This document shows positions 612 through 8,256 of a stretch of DNA of 64,000 nucleotides, piece by piece (positions within the stretch are counted from its first letter, which is position 1; each line of letters opens with the position of its first letter). The DNA is taken from sequence record PP355091.1. One strand, 5' to 3'. This DNA is from Escherichia phage 235Ecol030PP. Position numbers and translations under genes: made by a program. Under the pieces are notes generated by a model. The model made no database searches, had not been told where the DNA came from, and was given only the letters and a program-made list of their open reading frames with translations.

Positions 612-872
612 TTAAGCTTTACCGCCAGAAATAATTCCGAAGTTGTTAAAATCATATCCAATATCGTCAACATCTACTTTAGGACTTGCTACAACATAAG
701 CAATTTCACTACATTTTGCACAGGTGTTGATTTCTTTACCATCGCCACCTAAGAAAGAATACCCATTACGTTTTAATGAGCCAAAGTCTTCCGCATCATC
801 AATGAAAGCTTTAACTTTAAATTTAGAACCTTTGGCATCTGCTTCAACGATAAATTCTTGATACATTTTCAT
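612..872 (-). CDS. internal protein, IPII-like, CTS-bearing
   Basis: 86 aa; N-terminus MKMYQEFIVEA; AAGGA RBS before ATG at 872. Confidence 0.6.
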   Translation of the reverse strand: MKMYQEFIVEADAKGSKFKVKAFIDDAEDFGSLKRNGYSFLGGDGKEINTCAKCSEIAYVVASPKVDVDDIGYDFNNFGIISGGKA

Positions 873-1041: not shown

Positions 1042-2282
<1,241 letters not shown>

Positions 2283-2286
<4 letters not shown>

Positions 2287-2771
2287 TTTAATTTCCTGCA
2301 TTCAGTGATAAAGTTATTTAAATTTTGAGTATATTTCTTTTCATCAAAAATCTTTTGTTGTCTGCGTAAACGCCATGGCATTTCAATGAACACACACCAT
2401 ATTCCTGATAATATTGCTGTTGTCAAAATATTAACAAGTATGATTAAAAGAATCCAATCTCCCGTTCTGCCTACTGGACTTTCTCCAAAGAAGCAAAATA
2501 CAAATGATGTCACAGGAAGACTAATAATATACCACAGAATCATAATCTTATCTGTGAACCAATCAGCGTTCGTTAACTTAGCACGACCGTTTTGAATACA
2601 TACGAACTTATCATCTGTTATAATAGATGGCTTAGCTGCTTGATATCCCATTCTAAACTCCCTAATCAACAAATTTTTCATATCTTCGGAACAACCATTC
2701 CAGTCAACTCTATCAACTGGAATGCCATCATCCCCATCATCTAAATCATACCAGCGAGTTTTTAAAATCAT
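2283..2771 (-). CDS. small membrane protein, e.2-like, paralog family member
   Basis: hydrophobic segments; C-terminal motif NFITECRK; ATG at 2771 overlaps upstream stop (ATGA). Confidence 0.6.
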
Positions 2772-3130
2772 CTGATTTTCCTGCAATCACTCACAAACTC
2801 TTTCATTGCTTCATTTTCAATATAAGAAATGTAGCTATTATATTCCTTTAATTGTATTTTGTAATCTTTTTTTCTTTGCCAATTTATTTTAAAATTATCA
2901 TAATGAAAATATAACATGGTACCAAAGAATGAAAATAATGAAATAATTTTAGTATAGTGAAGTTCACTCCAAACTTCTATTATATTTACTGTGCCGTCAA
3001 TGTTTAAAATAAGACAGTCAATTAACAATCCAAAAAGACTACCCGCAAGAGCTGCAGCCAACGCCACAGCAAAAATTAAAAATGACTCAGGAAGCGAATA
3101 TTTGGCTTTATTTAGTTTTGGCTTTTGCAT
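2768..3130 (-). CDS. small membrane protein, e.3-like, paralog family member
   Basis: 120 aa; N-terminal TM helix; C-terminal motif EFVSDCRK. Confidence 0.6.
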   Translation of the reverse strand: MQKPKLNKAKYSLPESFLIFAVALAAALAGSLFGLLIDCLILNIDGTVNIIEVWSELHYTKIISLFSFFGTMLYFHYDNFKINWQRKKDYKIQLKEYNSYISYIENEAMKEFVSDCRKIR

Positions 3131-3504
3131 CGTGATTCCTTAACAAATTTCATAATTTCATTAAATTCATACTCAGCAAGTTTAAGCTGGTGTTCCTTTT
3201 TAATCTTTTTACACTGAGCTTTCCAATCGTGTACACGTTTACGATAATGTCTTCCTTGATACCAGTATCCTACCCAATTTACGGGTACTAATAAAAGTGG
3301 AACTACCAATGGAAGAATTAGCATTAACACAAGTATTTCGCCAGAATCAATATCAGTCATAACATCTAAAACACCTCCAATAATCAATAGAATTACAAAT
3401 GATATAAGTATAACAGGACCTATTAATACATCAGTAGAAATTATCTGGTGCTTTGATTCATACTTCAAAGGTTTACTTGGAAGGTATAGTGATGGTTTTG
3501 ACAT
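3112..3504 (-). CDS. small membrane protein, e.4-like, paralog family member
   Basis: ATG at 3504 (MSKPSLYLPSKPLKY); track ORF starts at TTG 3525; TM-rich; C-terminal motif KFVKESRCK. Confidence 0.6.
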   Translation of the reverse strand: MSKPSLYLPSKPLKYESKHQIISTDVLIGPVILISFVILLIIGGVLDVMTDIDSGEILVLMLILPLVVPLLLVPVNWVGYWYQGRHYRKRVHDWKAQCKKIKKEHQLKLAEYEFNEIMKFVKESRCKSQN

Positions 3505-4083
3505 ATTCTCTACATTCCTTAACAAATTTTTCTAATAATAAATCGCTTTCAAAATTGGGATTTTCCACGAATTTATCAAAAAGATCATCAACAATAGTTA
3601 AGATATTCTTTTTACTAAGAATACGCTTATTTTCATGCTTCGTTTCAGAATCAACTATAAGAGTAAAGAAATATTTCTTGCCCTGAAATTTTACAGTAGT
3701 ATCAATATAGAATAAATTTGACTTTTGTAAATTACGTTTAAACCATGCGTCGCTTAAACTATAAACGCCAAGATAATCATAATCGTCGTTTAAATAACAG
3801 ACCGTCCATTCAGGAGAAACAAAATCAGTAAATTCAACGTCAAAATCGCATATGTTAATAAATGAATTGATTCAATACTGTTAATAAGTATTCCAGGACG
3901 TATTAAAGACTTTTTACCTCTAGAAAATCTTCCAGAAAGACTTTCATCAGTTTCATATGAAGAACCCCAATAATAATTACGTCCTTCTGCCATACGTTTA
4001 AGAGCATTTAATAATTGGTCTGGAACATCAACCTGTCTTTGAAACTCTTCAAACATTGAATTGAAATCACTTTGCATTTTCAT
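3473..4083 (-). pseudogene. frameshift-interrupted ORF (e.5-like), 4th member of paralog family by C-terminal motif
   Basis: ATG 4083 frame open to 3790; a second frame with no ATG/GTG start runs 3871-3473 and ends EKFVKECREYVK; frames join with a 1-nt indel near 3855-3872. Confidence 0.45.
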
Positions 4084-4104
4084 TCCTATTTACTCCAAGT
4101 AATA

Positions 4105-4118
4105 GGGGCCGAAGCCCC
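4105..4118 (-). terminator. GC stem-loop with tetraloop downstream of 4125..4718 gene
   Basis: GGGGC-CGAA-GCCCC; same 20-nt hairpin recurs at 45073-45091. Confidence 0.4.
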
Positions 4119-4124
4119 TTATCA

Positions 4125-4718
4125 TTATTTCAGAGAATTAATGTATTCCTGAACATCGGCAGAGGTAGTTTCAACCCCAGAAATATTACCGTTAAAGGTT
4201 TCAACTCGAGCAAGAGTATCTTCAATATCAACCTTAGTCAGTGCTGCAATTTCAACTACATCATCAGCAGTACTAATTCCAAGGGCATTCGCGGCGCGAG
4301 TTTCACGGATATATTCCAATTTAACTGCAAGTTCTTGGCGAGCATCATCCAATTCAACTACTTTCTTAGCGATTTCAATTCGCATTTCAGCATAACCATC
4401 AGCTTTAGTAGTCAACTGCTCAGCTGTTCGACGATATAGTAAACCGAGTTTAGCATGCATTGTTACATCTTGACCTTCGGAAAGAAGCTTGCGAATTTCA
4501 CGCTCTTTTGATTCGGCTTGCTTATTCTTTTCGACAATAAGTTCACGAATACGCTTTTCTTCATTAATAGATTTAACGGAAGCAGTTTTTAGATCTTTAA
4601 TCTTATCAAGTAGTTTTGCTGCCGCAGCAGTATACTGTTCTTCAACAGATAGATTTTTAGCCATAGCAGAACCAAGTTTAGTGCGAATAAACTCAACAAT
4701 TTTCTTCAGTGTGTTCAT
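4125..4718 (-). CDS. coiled-coil protein (e.6-like), function unknown
   Basis: 197 aa, ATG start, K/E-rich heptad-like sequence. Confidence 0.7.
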
Positions 4719-4774
4719 AGTATTTCCTTAGGTTGGTATAATTAGATAATATCACGTTTTAATAGATTGTAAAC

Positions 4775-5110
4775 TTATTCTTCGTCTAGCTCGTCGATAA
4801 AGACGTTGATGGCCTCGATAACGGCATCATTGATAGCCAATAAAATAAAATCATCGTCAGTACCTTTAGAAGATTCTAAAGCATTGATATATGCTTGGTT
4901 GGCGAGTTCCCAAGCCTTTTTAAAATAAGGAGCTTCATCATCAGGACAAATATCCCGCACGCCTTCAAAGATACGTTTGGCATAATCTAACACCCATTGT
5001 ACAGGCATGTTTTGAGAACGTTCGTTAAACTCTTTAAAGTCCTTAGATTCAAAAAGCTCTTCAGGATAATTATTTCTATTACAAAAAGCTTTACTAAAGT
5101 TACGTTTCAT
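4775..5110 (-). CDS. hypothetical protein (e.7-like)
   Basis: 111 aa ORF with ATG start, acidic C-terminus. Confidence 0.65.
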   Translation of the reverse strand: MKRNFSKAFCNRNNYPEELFESKDFKEFNERSQNMPVQWVLDYAKRIFEGVRDICPDDEAPYFKKAWELANQAYINALESSKGTDDDFILLAINDAVIEAINVFIDELDEE

Positions 5111-5166: not shown

Positions 5167-5430
5167 TTATTTCATATTATTGAAATATTCTTCTGCGATT
5201 TCGTCGTTATCATGGTAAACTTTAGAAGACAGTTTAACATAACTTTCAGCAGTGAACATGTTAATCACAACCTTTACAGTATACCACTGACCATCTTCAT
5301 TACCCATTACTGCGTAAGTTTCAAACATCGGATGATCAGGACCGATAACTTTAATATCATTCACTGTACGACCAAAATCTTCTGAAACACATTTCATAAA
5401 GAAGTTGAACAGTTCGCCGTAATTATCCAT
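5167..5430 (-). CDS. hypothetical protein (e.8-like)
   Basis: ATG at 5430 with GGAG RBS; track ORF begins at TTG 5442. Confidence 0.65.
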   Translation of the reverse strand: MDNYGELFNFFMKCVSEDFGRTVNDIKVIGPDHPMFETYAVMGNEDGQWYTVKVVINMFTAESYVKLSSKVYHDNDEIAEEYFNNMK

Positions 5431-5474
5431 TTCATTCTCCAAGTTGTTTTCTGTATCAGTAGTTGATAGTTGTA

Positions 5475-5671: not shown

Positions 5672-6144
5672 TTATTTGATTTGTTTAGCAGACCAAATGC
5701 GGTCTTTAATAATTTTTTGGATGTCTTCAACATACTCAAGAGAATGAGCATGTGGGTTATCTTTAAAGCTATGAGCACGAGCTAGCTTTTGGCCTTCAGT
5801 TTTGATTACTAAAAGCTCTTTAAGGATAGCTTCATATTTGGAGATAATTCCTTTAACGATATTTTTTCTTGTGCGACTTTAGGATCTGCTTTAGGAGCAG
5901 GTTTACCCGAAGCCTTTGCAAAAGCAGCGCCAGTAGCAACTAAACTTTTCCAGGCCATACTAACTGCATTTCCCGTAAATCCTTCCGCTTTCATGTCGCG
6001 TGCGAACTGGAATCGTGATTCATCAGAAGCATCTTTGTAAGAATATTTACCCGCTGCAATGGCTGCTTTTGCGACAGCTTGAATTTCGGTGCTAGATGCT
6101 TCATTTAACACCGCTTCATTTAAAAATTGAGTATATGATTTCAT
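5672..6144 (-). pseudogene. CTS-bearing internal-protein-like gene interrupted by frameshift at A6 run
   Basis: ATG 6144, N-terminus MKSYTQFLNEAVLNEA; frame ends at 5809; a second frame continues plausibly to stop 5672 beside terminator; frames meet at fwd T6 run 5862-5867. Confidence 0.5.
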
Positions 6145-6898: not shown

Positions 6899-6974
6899 TG
6901 GTCGAGGCAGTAGGGATCGAACCTACGACCCAGGACTTAGAAGGTCCTTGCTCTTCCTTCTGAGCTATGCCCCG
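6899..6974 (-). tRNA. tRNA-Arg (anticodon UCU), CCA encoded
   Basis: cloverleaf read by hand; T-arm GTAGG-TTCGATC-CCTAC; anticodon loop CUUCUAA. Confidence 0.85.
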
Positions 6975-6977
6975 TAA

Positions 6978-7643
6978 TTAAAATTTCATTTTTCGACCTT
7001 TAAACCATCCTTCTGGAATTGGGTCAGTTTTCTTAATACGTTTAGAAACTTTTTCATCTAATGAATGAATCCACATCATACCAAATTGGGAATTCTTTTC
7101 GCCCTGTTGATGTTTATTTCTGGCGTGAGATTCTTTCATTTTATTAATAGTTTCAGGAGTATGATGCTTATTTAAAAATCTGCTATTATTTAAAAATTTT
7201 TCCCTGTATTCAGGAGTTGACCACAAGCGTTTAAATACATTTGAACCATGTTTACGATATTTTTCTTGAAGTAAAATATCATTTTTAAAACGTGACTTAA
7301 ACGATTTAGCTCCTTTTAAGCTAGCATCTTTCTTCTGGTTTAGCATCCCAGGAATATTTACATGATCCCATCCACCTTCACCACCAAGTTTTAAATTATA
7401 CACATCTGGTCTATTTAAAAACTCTTCTGTGACAATATTTTTCTCGGCTTCAAGCATAGATTCTTTATCGTCAAAGAACTCTAATATTTCTTTAGAAAAA
7501 TTTTCTATACCATACTTATCTTGGGCTCTTTTTAATAATTTACCAGAACCCATATATCCATCATCTAAATTTTCGGTAGAATGAGCGCCTATATAGATTT
7601 TATTATTAATTTTATTTGTTATTTTATAAATGTAATGGAACAT
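6978..7643 (-). mobile_element. segB: GIY-YIG homing endonuclease SegB within the tRNA cluster
   Basis: 221 aa; N-terminal YIYKITNKINNKIYIGAHS GIY-YIG motif; located between tRNA-Arg and tRNA-Ile as in T4. Confidence 0.85.
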
Positions 7644-7684
7644 AAATATCTCCTATTTCTAAGAGTATTTATGTTCTCAAAATA

Positions 7685-7756
7685 TGGCCCTGGGTGGAAT
7701 TGAACCACCATCTGGCGATTATGAGTCGCTTGCTTGAACCTTCCAGCTACAGGGCC
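7685..7756 (-). tRNA. tRNA-Ile (anticodon CAU; Met by anticodon alone)
   Basis: acceptor GGCCCTG/CAGGGCC, T-arm GGTGG-TTCAATT-CCACC, anticodon loop CUCAUAA. Confidence 0.8.
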
Positions 7757-7762
7757 TTGATA

Positions 7763-7835
7763 TGCTGATTGACGGAATCGAACCGCCGACGTCCTCATTA
7801 CAAGTGAGGTGCTCTACCTACTGAGCTAAATCAGC
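7763..7835 (-). tRNA. tRNA-Thr (anticodon UGU)
   Basis: D-arm GCTC-AGTAGGTA-GAGC, anticodon loop CUUGUAA, T-loop TTCGATT. Confidence 0.85.
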
Positions 7836-7842
7836 GAAATTA

Positions 7843-7929
7843 CGGAGGCGATAGGATTTGAACCTATGAGTCGCCGGAGCGACTGCCGGTTTTCAAGACC
7901 GGTGCATTAAACCACTCTGCCACGCCTCC
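7843..7929 (-). tRNA. tRNA-Ser (anticodon UGA), long variable arm
   Basis: acceptor GGAGGCG/CGCCTCC, anticodon loop CUUGAAA, T-loop TTCAAAT. Confidence 0.85.
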
Positions 7930-7931
7930 AG

Positions 7932-8005
7932 TCTCCGTGGCAGGATTTGAACCTACGACATTCTGCTCCCAAAGCAGACGCTCTACCAAACTGAGCTACA
8001 CGGAG
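7932..8005 (-). tRNA. tRNA-Pro (anticodon UGG)
   Basis: D-arm GCTC-AGTTTGGTA-GAGC, anticodon loop UUUGGGA. Confidence 0.85.
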
Positions 8006-8017
8006 TAAATTAAATTT

Positions 8018-8089
<72 letters not shown>

Positions 8090-8095
8090 AAACTT

Positions 8096-8182
8096 TGGTA
8101 CGAGAAGTGGGACTCGAACCCACAAGGAAATCATTCCGCAGCATTTTAAGTGCTGTGTCTTTACCAATTTGACCATTCTCGC
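8096..8182 (-). tRNA. tRNA-Leu (anticodon UAA), long variable arm, CCA encoded
   Basis: anticodon loop CUUAAAA, T-arm GTGGG-TTCGAGT-CCCAC, 3' ACCA. Confidence 0.85.
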
Positions 8183-8183
8183 G

Positions 8184-8256
8184 CTGGGAATAAAGGACTC
8201 GAACCTTTGCATCCTGGAATCAAAATCCAGTGCCTTACCAACTTGGCTAATTCCCA
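8184..8256 (-). tRNA. tRNA-Gln (anticodon UUG)
   Basis: acceptor TGGGAAT/ATTCCCA, anticodon loop UUUUGAU, T-loop TTCGAGT. Confidence 0.85.

What the first reader, a model, noticed from the sequence alone, without database searches (positions are those of the whole stretch)
2283..4083. Tandem family of four paralogous small membrane proteins with a conserved C-terminal F-x-x-x-C-R-K motif
Four consecutive minus-strand genes share one build: hydrophobic helices, a basic stretch, then a C-terminus of NFITECRK, EFVSDCRK, KFVKESRCK or KFVKECREYVK. Two also share an N-terminal KP-x-L-x-x-x-KY motif. They overlap each other T4-style. A tandem array of diverging small membrane proteins next to the lysis gene suggests a role at the membrane that is under diversifying pressure, such as superinfection exclusion or interference with a host membrane defence.
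Basis: seen in the sequence. Interest (0 to 1): 0.6.

Follow-up and report, generated by a model that had tools for sequence, protein, structure and literature searches.

The report
T4 e.2–e.5 genes share tail motif
These are the long-annotated but uncharacterised early genes e.2, e.3, e.4 and e.5 of a T4-like phage; they do share a real, deeply conserved C-terminal motif, but only three are membrane proteins and the function is still unknown.

Summary
The window is a Tequatrovirus (T4-like phage). The four genes are T4 e.2, e.3, e.4 and e.5, first sequenced as msp7 to msp4.

The C-terminal motif is real. Its consensus is Φ-x-x-[FW]-[IV]-x-x-C-[RK]. It is essentially absent from control ORFs. 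It recurs in 24 proteins from about nine T4-like genera, including Aeromonas phages.

It is not only a shadow of ribosome-binding sites. Motif positions 3-4 do encode the Shine-Dalgarno of the next, overlapping gene. But F, I/V, C and R are kept through synonymous codon changes. The motif also survives where no gene follows.

Corrections to the finding:
- Only e.2, e.3 and e.4 are N-in/C-in two-helix membrane proteins.
- e.5 is a roughly 200-aa soluble protein. Here it is broken by a private 2-bp insertion, and the "hydrophobic helix" of the 97-aa ORF is out-of-frame translation.
- Whole-body homology is supported only for e.3 and e.4. e.2 and e.5 share just the tail.
- Positive selection is not shown. 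The tails are under purifying selection and the membrane hairpins evolve fast.
- The genes are early-expressed, dispensable in the laboratory and often broken or deleted in nature. Some deletions run precisely between the repeated junctions.

Function is unknown. My best guess is a shared cytoplasmic docking helix.

The parts
2283..2771 (-). e.2 (T4 e.2/msp7 orthologue), 162 aa from the ATG. It has an acidic N-terminal domain of about 74 aa, two TM helices and a basic C-tail ending [10 protein letters not shown].
   Evidence: phrog_2203 E = 1.5e-77. Homologues carry PF26896. TM segments at 75-96 and 103-131. The AF2 model shows H69-95 and H103-161 at low confidence.
2295..2312 (-). Codons for the e.2 motif F-I-T-E-C-R. 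The following AGG AAA (R-K) is the Shine-Dalgarno for nudE, and AAATGA is the stop/start overlap.
2768..3130 (-). e.3 (T4 e.3/msp6 orthologue), 120 aa. It has a basic N-tail, two TM helices and a basic C-tail ending EFVSDCRKIR*.
   Evidence: phrog_2330 E = 4e-59. Its homologues are 78-96% identical. A Mosigvirus orthologue ends NFIKECRK*.
2780..2797 (-). Codons for the e.3 motif F-V-S-D-C-R. TGCAGGAAA here repeats the e.2/nudE junction and is the site of natural precise e.2 deletions.
3112..3504 (-). e.4 (T4 e.4/msp5 orthologue), 130 aa from ATG 3504. It has an N-tail MSKPSLYLPSKP, a TM hairpin and a long C-terminal helix ending KFVKESRCKSQN*.
   Evidence: phrog_2604 E = 3.6e-69. Homologues carry PF26873. 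AF2 pLDDT is 73 with H24-49 and H54-129.
3130..3147 (-). Codons for the e.4 motif F-V-K-E-S-R. AAGGAA (K-E) is the SD of e.3. The following Cys codon TGC contains the TG of the e.3 ATG.
3473..4083 (-). e.5 (T4 e.5/msp4 orthologue). It is a soluble protein of about 202 aa, interrupted here by a frameshift. This gives a 97-aa ORF at 3790-4083 plus a start-less remainder at 3473-3853.
   Evidence: phrog_2607 E = 1.5e-108 for the intact Lutter orthologue; the repaired window sequence is 100% identical over 202 aa to the e.5 coding region of phage L14.
3852..3853 (-). 2-bp (AT) insertion that frameshifts e.5. It is private to this genome, or a sequencing error.
   Evidence: Alignment with Lutter. 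0 of 266 phage records have it.
3509..3526 (-). Codons for the e.5 motif F-V-K-E-C-R. AAGGAA is the SD of e.4, whose ATG lies at 3504.
1846..2286 (-). nudE (Nudix hydrolase), the last gene of the translationally coupled run. Its ATG overlaps the e.2 stop.
4125..4718 (-). e.6, a highly conserved 197-aa protein that directly precedes an e.5-like gene in all T4-like genera examined.
   Evidence: dN/dS is 0.03.
4104..4119 (-). GGGGCTTCGGCCCC hairpin between e.6 and e.5. It is annotated as a stem-loop or terminator in T4, Lutter and D5505.

Best explanation
SHOWN.
- The region is the e.5-e.4-e.3-e.2(-nudE) early-gene run of a T4-like phage, read as overlapping, translationally coupled genes.
- e.2, e.3 and e.4 are inner-membrane helical hairpins. 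By the positive-inside rule both ends are cytoplasmic. In the e.4 model (pLDDT 73), and in the low-confidence e.2 model, the second TM helix continues into a long basic cytoplasmic helix.
- e.5 is a soluble protein, frameshifted in this genome.
- All four end in the same amphipathic segment, Φ-x-x-[FW]-[IV]-x-x-C-[RK].
- The segment is dual-coding. Positions 3-4 (usually K-E) and the final K-stop also spell the Shine-Dalgarno and the ATGA start of the next gene. F, I/V, C and R are held at the protein level.
- The repeated junction DNA is a recombination substrate that removes genes cleanly, and by inference adds them. e.3 and e.4 are true paralogues.

INFERRED (mechanism).
- The shared tail is a cytoplasmic protein-protein docking helix.
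- Most likely it bundles the co-synthesised proteins into one membrane-anchored complex, tethering soluble e.5 to the hairpins.
- Less likely, each protein uses it to bind the same partner.
- The complex is an accessory, conditionally useful early function. Its fast-evolving membrane hairpins face the host envelope.
- What it does there (exclusion, counter-defence or membrane remodelling) is not known.
For: Identity of the genes:
- DNA is up to 96.1% identical to Tequatroviruses.
- T4 and L13089 annotation matches. PHROG and Pfam hits agree.

Motif specificity.

Conservation:
- The motif was tabulated in 24 proteins of the e.5, e.4, e.3 and e.2 families across Tequatro-, Mosig-, Gapriver-, Dhaka-, Kanagawa-, Biquarta-, Ishiguro- and Pseudoteven-viruses and a Klebsiella phage.
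- F/W, I/V and R/K are present in 24 of 24. C is present in 18 of 24.

Protein-level constraint:
- Arg is coded by AGG, AGA, CGT, CGC or CGG. Cys is coded by TGC or TGT. Phe is coded by TTT or TTC.
- The motif is retained with no overlapping downstream gene in SW69-9 (next start +70 nt) and in the ZPAH1 80-aa protein (+246 nt).
- Tail dN/dS is 0.11-0.14, against 0.13 for nudE.

Embedded SD and ATGA.

Homology: e.3~e.4 E = 2.4e-8, with shuffles 0/150. Tail-only matches are e.2~e.3 at 1.2e-5, e.5~e.2 at 9e-5 and e.5~e.3 at 2.5e-4.

Junction-mediated deletions:
- In L018 and RB32, e.3 ends ...DCRKLK* and is fused at TGCAGGAAA.
- In dhabil, e.5 ends ...ECREYAKEVQNGTA* and e.4 is gone.
- P0143 is an e.4N::e.2C fusion.

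Structure: a continuous TM2-to-tail helix is predicted, with the highest confidence in the tail.

Expression: RNA is early and all four proteins were detected (PMC9697503 supplement).
Against: - No direct evidence of any interaction exists.
- SW69-9 and CS701 carry only an e.5-like protein with the motif and no motif-bearing neighbour. The helix therefore cannot serve only to join neighbours.
- e.4-type tails lack the Cys (S, I or V instead). The e.4 tail is not significantly similar to the e.2 or e.5 tails.
- The genes are often frameshifted or deleted. In 11 Tequatrovirus loci, e.2 is lost in 3, e.3 in 2 and e.5 in 2.
- Knock-down gives no phenotype. An obligatory four-part complex is therefore unlikely.
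- CS701 is placed in the e.5 family by position and motif only.
Confidence: 0.5

Rival explanations
1. The motif has no protein function. It is only the upstream-frame reading of the ribosome-binding site and start codon of the next overlapping gene, copied along the array when junctions were duplicated.
For: - Motif positions 3-4 coincide with AAGGAA, GAGGAA or AGGAG, 5-10 nt upstream of the next ATG.
- The terminal K-stop is AAATGA in most junctions.
- The e.4 'RCK' Cys codon contains the e.3 start.
- Positions 3-4 drift to D-Y in SW69-9, where nothing follows.
- The junctions are demonstrably duplicated and recombined DNA.
Against: - F, I/V, C and R are conserved through synonymous codon changes across genera.
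- The motif persists where there is no downstream gene (SW69-9, ZPAH1 80-aa). In CS701 it lies 31 aa from the stop, about 25 codons upstream of the next gene's start.
- 0 of 29 other coupled genes in the window show it.
- The SD sits at different motif positions in e.2/e.3 (R-K) and in e.4/e.5 (K-E), yet the peptide aligns.
Confidence: 0.1
2. A family of paralogous small membrane proteins is under diversifying selection and acts in superinfection exclusion or against a host membrane-acting defence.
For: - There are three hairpin membrane proteins, expressed early.
- The hairpin regions evolve 3-8 times faster at the protein level than the tails. They have indel variants and mosaic alleles.
- The genes are accessory and patchily present, as counter-defence or exclusion genes often are.
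Against: - No dN/dS is significantly above 1. The e.4 hairpin gives 0.89 with CI 0.49-1.76.
- Periplasmic loops are only 4-19 residues. The conserved mass is cytoplasmic.
- No similarity to Imm, Sp or any PADLOC, Pfam or NCBIfam family was found.
- The T4 HIDEN-SEQ section read (section 5), covering RexAB, RnlAB, CBASS and DarTG, names other genes. e.2 to e.6 are not mentioned anywhere in the main text.
- e.5 does not fit the model.
Confidence: 0.2
3. Each protein acts on its own. The common tail is a targeting peptide for one conserved host cytoplasmic or membrane-peripheral protein, with no phage-phage complex.
For: - The motif occurs on unrelated bodies: the soluble e.5 family, hairpins and an 80-aa soluble protein. 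It also occurs in phages that have only one carrier.
- The hosts (Escherichia, Klebsiella, Enterobacter, Aeromonas, Cronobacter) share conserved core proteins.
Against: - Tight translational coupling and conserved gene order favour co-assembly.
- There is no candidate target and no matching known short linear motif.
Confidence: 0.15
4. The cluster is decaying, functionless DNA. The similarity is a relic of old duplications.
For: - Frameshifts are seen in T4 (e.2), this window (e.5), PhiZZ6 (e.3), RB32 (e.3) and L018 (e.5). Deletions are seen in several phages.
- CRISPRi knock-down is neutral.
Against: - Selection on the tails, on e.5 (dN/dS 0.07) and on e.4, which is intact in 11 of 11 loci, is purifying.
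- Synteny and the motif are kept from Escherichia to Aeromonas phages.
- The proteins are detected in infection.
Confidence: 0.05

Closest known systems
Bacteriophage T4 genes e.2, e.3, e.4, e.5 (NP_049738-NP_049741; msp7-msp4 of GenBank L13089; Pfam PF26896 for e.2, PF26873 for e.4; PHROGs 2203, 2330, 2604, 2607)
   Same: The genes are orthologous, in the same order and with the same overlaps, between e.6 and nudE/e. T4 annotates e.2, e.3 and e.4 as 'predicted membrane protein'.
   Different: - Here e.2 is intact (162 aa), whereas T4's copy is truncated to 102 aa.
- Here e.5 is frameshifted, whereas T4's is intact.
- No function is recorded for any of them.
- None of the annotation or papers I could reach mentions the shared tail motif. 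The 2003 T4 genome review was not available.
Small T4 early inner-membrane proteins with known accessory roles (Imm, Sp, Ac, RI), from my own knowledge
   Same: They are small, early-expressed, non-essential and membrane-inserted.
   Different: No sequence or profile similarity was detected. The e.2 to e.4 proteins expose almost nothing to the periplasm, and their conserved part is a cytoplasmic helix.
Translationally coupled overlapping genes (ATGA or SD-in-upstream-ORF junctions), common in T4 and other phages
   Same: SD and start of each gene lie inside the 3' end of the preceding gene. 32 such junctions are seen in this window.
   Different: Here the same peptide-coding junction is reused four times and conserved as a peptide across genera. 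The other 29 junctions share no peptide motif.

Membership tests
T4 e.2 family (PF26896 / phrog_2203) | Full-length profile match | tested here: met
   phrog_2203 E = 1.5e-77 over residues 1-160. All homologues carry PF26896.
T4 e.3 family (phrog_2330) | Full-length profile match | tested here: met
   E = 4.2e-59 over 1-118. The best hit is named e.3 in phage PP01.
T4 e.4 family (PF26873 / phrog_2604) | Full-length profile match | tested here: met
   E = 3.6e-69 over 1-130. PF26873 is found on all homologues.
T4 e.5 family (phrog_2607) | Profile match and an intact ORF of about 200 aa | tested here: inconclusive
   The intact Lutter orthologue matches phrog_2607 at E = 1.5e-108, and the repaired window sequence is 100% identical to phage L14's e.5. 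The window's ORF is broken by a 2-bp insertion.
One paralogous family comprising all four genes (the finding's claim) | Significant similarity beyond the terminal motif between every pair | tested here: not met
   It is met only for e.3-e.4 (59 columns, E = 2.4e-8). e.2 and e.5 match the others over 17-24 terminal residues only. e.4 against e.2 or e.5 is not significant.
Small membrane proteins (all four) | Predicted TM helices in the authentic reading frame | tested here: not met
   e.2, e.3 and e.4 each have two TM segments. The only hydrophobic stretch in e.5 is out-of-frame.
Genes under diversifying (positive) selection | dN/dS significantly above 1 in some region | tested here: inconclusive
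   The highest values are the e.4 hairpin at 0.89 (CI 0.49-1.76) and the e.2 loop at 1.36 on 9 codons. The tails are at 0.11-0.14. The sample is small (8-11 sequences).
Superinfection-exclusion proteins (T4 Imm/Sp type) | Sequence relationship to known exclusion proteins; exclusion phenotype | tested here: not met
   No PHROG or Pfam hit to such families was found. The phenotype is not testable here.
Known anti-phage defence or counter-defence families (PADLOC-DB) | Profile match | tested here: not met
   No hit was found for e.2 to e.6.
Sulfurtransferase (the name attached to e.3 and e.4 in some NCBI records) | Rhodanese-type domain or an NCBIfam/Pfam match | tested here: not met
   No Pfam or NCBIfam match was found. 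The name appears only as a database label.

The most novel reading that the evidence does not exclude
The Φxx[FW][IV]xxC[RK] tail is a portable docking module. Through it a soluble protein conserved across many T4-like genera (e.5) and a variable set of membrane hairpins (e.4, e.3, e.2) assemble into an early inner-membrane complex. The same about 25 nt also carries the coupling signals and serves as the crossover site. The phage can therefore add, drop or swap hairpin subunits in frame, which would be a modular system for adapting to host envelopes or defences.
Probability: 0.2. Interest if true: 0.65.

Novelty: new variant of a known kind. Interest (0 to 1): 0.4.

Why it matters
Most T4 genes still have no function, and e.2 to e.6 are among them. 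A motif kept from Escherichia to Aeromonas phages, and shared by four adjacent co-translated proteins, is a concrete handle. It nominates residues to mutate (F, C, R) and partners to test (each other, and e.6). It also offers an explanation for why gene content in this block changes cleanly between phages.

The result is also a caution. A conserved peptide motif at overlapping gene junctions can be partly dictated by embedded ribosome-binding sites. A single frameshift can also create a convincing fake "membrane protein".

Tried and rejected
- Pairwise BLASTP and low-diversity hhalign between e.2, e.3, e.4 and e.5 gave only marginal terminal matches. Multi-genus profiles were needed.
- The search for homologous proteins returned only Tequatrovirus relatives of 66% identity or more. 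tblastn on phage genomes found the divergent ones.
- The e.4 profile against 1.84 billion representatives gave 6 hits, all orthologues or fragments.
- Pfam, NCBIfam, PADLOC and PDB sequence searches gave nothing above threshold for e.2 to e.6 or for divergent e.5-like and e.2-like proteins.
- The AF2 model of e.2 was too poor (pLDDT 52) for a fold search of its N-domain.
- A Foldseek search of the e.4 model against BFVD found only orthologues.
- Literature searches by gene name were swamped by unrelated 'e.3/e.4' strings. The T4 genome review was not held. The HIDEN-SEQ T4 paper does not mention these genes.
- The RBS-shadow-only idea was considered and rejected as the sole cause.
- Programmed frameshifting in e.5 was considered and rejected. 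The insertion is unique to this genome.
- Viral contigs yielded only 4 extra loci.
Full report
**What the region is.** Window bases 1300-4800 are up to 96.1% identical to Tequatroviruses, with about 500 near-full-length matches. Comparison with T4 (NC_000866) and phage Lutter names the genes, all on the minus strand:
- e (lysozyme), 1320-1808
- nudE, 1846-2286
- e.2, 2283-2771
- e.3, 2768-3130
- e.4, 3112-3504
- e.5, 3473-4083
- e.6, 4125-4718

An old T4 GenBank entry (L13089) calls e.5, e.4, e.3, e.2 and nudE msp4 to msp8. It marks a stem-loop after e.6 and no promoter before e.5. PHROG profiles match full length: e.2 to 2203, e.3 to 2330, e.4 to 2604, e.5 to 2607 and e.6 to 1203, all of unknown function. 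Precomputed Pfam labels are PF26896 for e.2 and PF26873 for e.4. Both are newer than the local Pfam copy.

**Checking the observation.** The four quoted peptides are in the sequence, and the genes overlap by 32, 19, 4 and 4 nt.

Hydropathy gives two TM segments each for e.2 and e.4. For e.3 it flags one broad hydrophobic stretch, and I read a second, weaker segment at about 60-77 from the sequence. AlphaFold2 models of e.4 (pLDDT 73) and e.2 (pLDDT 52, low confidence) show a helical hairpin. In both, the second TM helix runs on without a break into the C-terminal tail. Charge distribution, read directly from the sequence, puts both ends in the cytoplasm and leaves loops of only 4-19 residues outside.

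The fourth member does not fit.
- In T4, Lutter and many others e.5 is one ORF of about 202 aa with no TM segment.
- The window has an extra AT at about 3852-3853. This splits e.5 into a 97-aa ORF and a start-less remainder.
- The ORF's last roughly 20 residues, LLTYAILTLNLLILFLLNGRSVI, are out-of-frame.
- With the two bases removed, the protein is 100% identical to that of phage L14.
- None of 266 matching phage records has the insertion. It is therefore a private mutation or a sequencing error, not a programmed shift.

**Is the motif more than chance?**
- The pattern F[IV]..[DE]?[CS]R occurs four times in 23,420 aa of window ORFs. Three of these are the C-termini of e.2, e.3 and e.4.
- The stricter [FW][IV]..C[RK] occurs twice in 24,267 aa (e.2 and e.3). 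It occurs zero times in 19,808 aa from the first 50 kb of Mosigvirus mogra.
- Local alignments of the four tails exceed 5,000 shuffles at p = 0.0008-0.044.

**Is it just ribosome-binding sites read in another frame?** This was my first suspicion, because every motif overlaps the start region of the next gene. The junction table shows it is partly true.
- Motif positions 3-4 (K-E, E-E or R-S) are AAGGAA, GAGGAA or AGGAG, lying 5-10 nt before the next ATG.
- The frequent terminal K-stop is AAATGA.
- In e.4 the Cys of 'RCK' is TGC because A-TG-C carries the e.3 start.

Four observations show a protein-level layer as well.
1. F, I/V, C and R are kept with synonymous codon changes across genera. 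Arg uses AGG, AGA, CGT, CGC or CGG. Cys uses TGC or TGT. Phe uses TTT or TTC.
2. The SD falls on R-K in e.2/e.3 but on K-E in e.4/e.5, yet the peptides align.
3. The motif persists where there is no coupled downstream gene. Examples are the Aeromonas phage SW69-9 e.5-like protein (next start +70 nt) and the ZPAH1 80-aa protein (+246 nt). In CS701 it lies 31 residues from the end.
4. None of the other 29 stop/start-coupled genes in the window shows even a relaxed motif.

The segment is therefore dual-coding.

**Conservation elsewhere.** tblastn found divergent relatives, and I read their loci. In every genus examined an e.5-like gene directly follows e.6, usually followed by one to three small hairpin proteins.

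| Phage (genus) | e.5-like | e.4-like | e.3-like | Other |
|---|---|---|---|---|
| mogra (Mosigvirus) | QFIMECREYVK | EFVKEIRCKS | NFIKECRK* | |
| VR20 (Gaprivervirus) | RFIAECREYAK | EFIKEVRNGTA* | TFIKECKS* | |
| Wolf_ER13 (Klebsiella phage) | EFIKYCRERVQK* | EFVKEVRRK* | AWIRSCRK* | SWIKEMK* |
| IME523 (Kanagawavirus) | DFVDQCRANIK | | | LFIKNVRRK* |
| SW69-9 (Biquartavirus) | LFVDYCRR | | | |
| ZPAH1 (Ishigurovirus) | two tandem e.5-like genes | | | soluble 80-aa protein SFIKECRKIVS* |
| MX01 and SP18 (Dhaka- and Gaprivervirus) | | | | e.2: [ES]FIEECRK* |

Aligned on the aromatic residue, 24 proteins give the following counts:
- a hydrophobic residue at -3: 17 of 24
- F/W at 0: 24 of 24
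- I/V at +1: 24 of 24
- K at +2: 12 of 24
- E at +3: 15 of 24
- C at +4: 18 of 24
- R/K at +5: 24 of 24

The spacing i, i+3, i+4, i+7 is that of one face of an amphipathic helix. PHROG cross-hits link most e.5-like proteins to one superfamily (2607, 13418, 8788, 16253, 10830). CS701 is placed there by position and motif only. In the e.5 family alignment the motif is the single best-conserved block.

**Are the four paralogues?**
- With Tequatrovirus-only alignments, profile comparison found nothing beyond short terminal matches.
- With multi-genus alignments, e.3 and e.4 align over TM2 plus the whole tail (59 columns, Prob 95%, E = 2.4e-8). The score is 50.7, against 14.4 ± 1.9 for 150 column shuffles, with none reaching it.
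- The membrane half of e.2 matches e.3 only over the last 18 residues (E = 1.2e-5).
- e.5 matches e.3 and e.2 over 17-24 residues (E = 2.5e-4 and 9e-5).
- e.4 against e.2 or e.5 is not significant.

So e.3 and e.4 are paralogues. e.2 and e.5 share a C-terminal module attached to different bodies.

**Array dynamics.** Natural variants show crossovers at the repeated junctions.
- In IMG/VR contig L018 and in RB32, e.2 is gone and e.3 ends ...DCRKLK*. This is e.3's motif joined to e.2's last two codons within the shared TGCAGGAAA. It keeps both the peptide and the coupling to nudE.
- In Dhakavirus dhabil, e.4 is gone and e.5 ends ...ECREYAKEVQNGTA*, carrying the e.4 tail end.
- UFV05 encodes an in-register e.4N::e.2C fusion.
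- A 69-aa e.4 variant lacks the hairpin.

Frameshifts are frequent: e.2 in T4, e.5 here and in L018, and e.3 in PhiZZ6 and RB32. Among 11 Tequatrovirus loci, e.6, e.4 and nudE are intact in all. e.2 is intact in 8, e.3 in 9 and e.5 in 9.

**Selection.** Pooled pairwise Nei-Gojobori estimates from 8-11 sequences:

| Region | dN/dS |
|---|---|
| e.6 | 0.03 |
| e.5 | 0.07 |
| nudE | 0.13 |
| C-tails of e.2, e.3, e.4 | 0.11, 0.14, 0.13 |
| Hairpin regions of e.2, e.3, e.4 | 0.56, 0.37, 0.84 |

Sub-dividing the hairpins gives at most 0.89 for e.4 TM1 plus loop (bootstrap CI 0.49-1.76) and 1.36 on the nine codons of the e.2 loop. The tails are clearly constrained. The hairpins evolve fast, but positive selection is not shown, and relaxed constraint on a membrane anchor explains the numbers equally well.

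**Expression and dispensability.** In T4 all of e.2 to e.6 have early RNA, and their proteins are detected by mass spectrometry (PMC9697503 supplement). In the CRISPRi-ART screen their prior essentiality was 'UNKNOWN', and knock-down scored 'Not Fit', meaning no fitness effect on laboratory E. coli (PMC11879866 supplement). The T4 section of the HIDEN-SEQ transposon study that I read names other genes for RexAB, RnlAB, CBASS and DarTG. e.2 to e.6 do not appear anywhere in its main text.

**Mechanism.** What is shown:
- a co-transcribed, translationally coupled set of one soluble and three hairpin proteins
- a shared, purifying-selected, amphipathic C-terminal segment
- a location for that segment in the cytoplasm by topology

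What I infer: the segment is a docking helix, most likely bundling the co-made proteins into a membrane-anchored complex. Alternatively, each protein binds one common partner. Single-carrier phages (SW69-9, CS701) and frequent loss of individual members argue against an obligatory four-part complex. For that reason I give the mechanism about 0.35-0.4, and the overall description 0.5. The physiological role is open. An accessory, host- or competitor-dependent function is the reasonable expectation.

**Comparison with the known.** These are orthologues of annotated T4 ORFs, so the genes themselves are not new. I found no record of the shared tail module, of its dual coding, or of the junction-mediated gain and loss. 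My literature access was limited. Database names such as 'sulfurtransferase' (e.3, e.4) have no profile support.

**Verdict.** Interest is moderate: a real, testable motif in long-standing dark-matter genes, but no function yet.

Noticed in passing
window 612-872, 1042-1323 and 5809-6144 (all minus strand): Three small ORFs begin MK[MTS]Y[QST][EQ]F[IL].E. This resembles the capsid-targeting N-terminus of T4 internal proteins. The third lies between the e.8-like ORF (5167-5442) and the tRNA cluster, where T4 has no such gene.
   Followed up: no
window 6899-8256 (minus strand): Eight tRNA genes (Arg, Met, Thr, Ser, Pro, Gly, Leu, Gln) are present. A GIY-YIG segB-like homing-endonuclease ORF (6978-7643) lies between tRNA-Arg and the rest, as in T4.
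   Followed up: partly
L005 4790-5584; L006 3300-3881; L010 5210-6033; L011 4802-5328; L014 5022-5603: In Mosig-, Gapriver-, Dhaka-, Kanagawa- and Karam-viruses, a run of two to three tandem paralogues of 65-101 aa lies a little further downstream of e.6, directly after the hairpin genes where these are present. All end W[VIL]SSS..C* or W..SSC*. This is a second conserved C-terminal motif family, and it is absent from this window.
   Followed up: no
window 4125-4718 (minus strand): e.6 is extremely conserved: dN/dS 0.03, 98-100% identity within Tequatrovirus and 51-59% in Aeromonas phages. It directly precedes an e.5-like gene in all loci examined. By eye it looks like a helical coiled-coil (PspA-like), but no Pfam, NCBIfam or PDB match supports this.
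   Followed up: partly
database records for relatives: Automated names attached to these genes look spurious. Examples are 'sulfurtransferase' for e.3 and e.4, 'host specificity protein' for e.6, and 'head outer capsid protein' or 'DNA primase' for e.3-like proteins. No profile found here supports any of them.
   Followed up: partly
L002 (T4) 1973-2461; L022 (RB32) about 2200-2280: T4's own e.2 is truncated to 102 aa, with the membrane half left as a separate 51-aa ORF. RB32's e.3 is frameshifted in an A-run (KKKK). The laboratory reference phages therefore carry damaged copies of this cluster.
   Followed up: partly
window 3704-3731 (minus strand, inside e.5): There is a good sigma-70/T4-early-like promoter match (TTTACA-16-TATATT) inside e.5. 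It could drive e.4-e.3-e.2 independently. This is a consensus match only.
   Followed up: no
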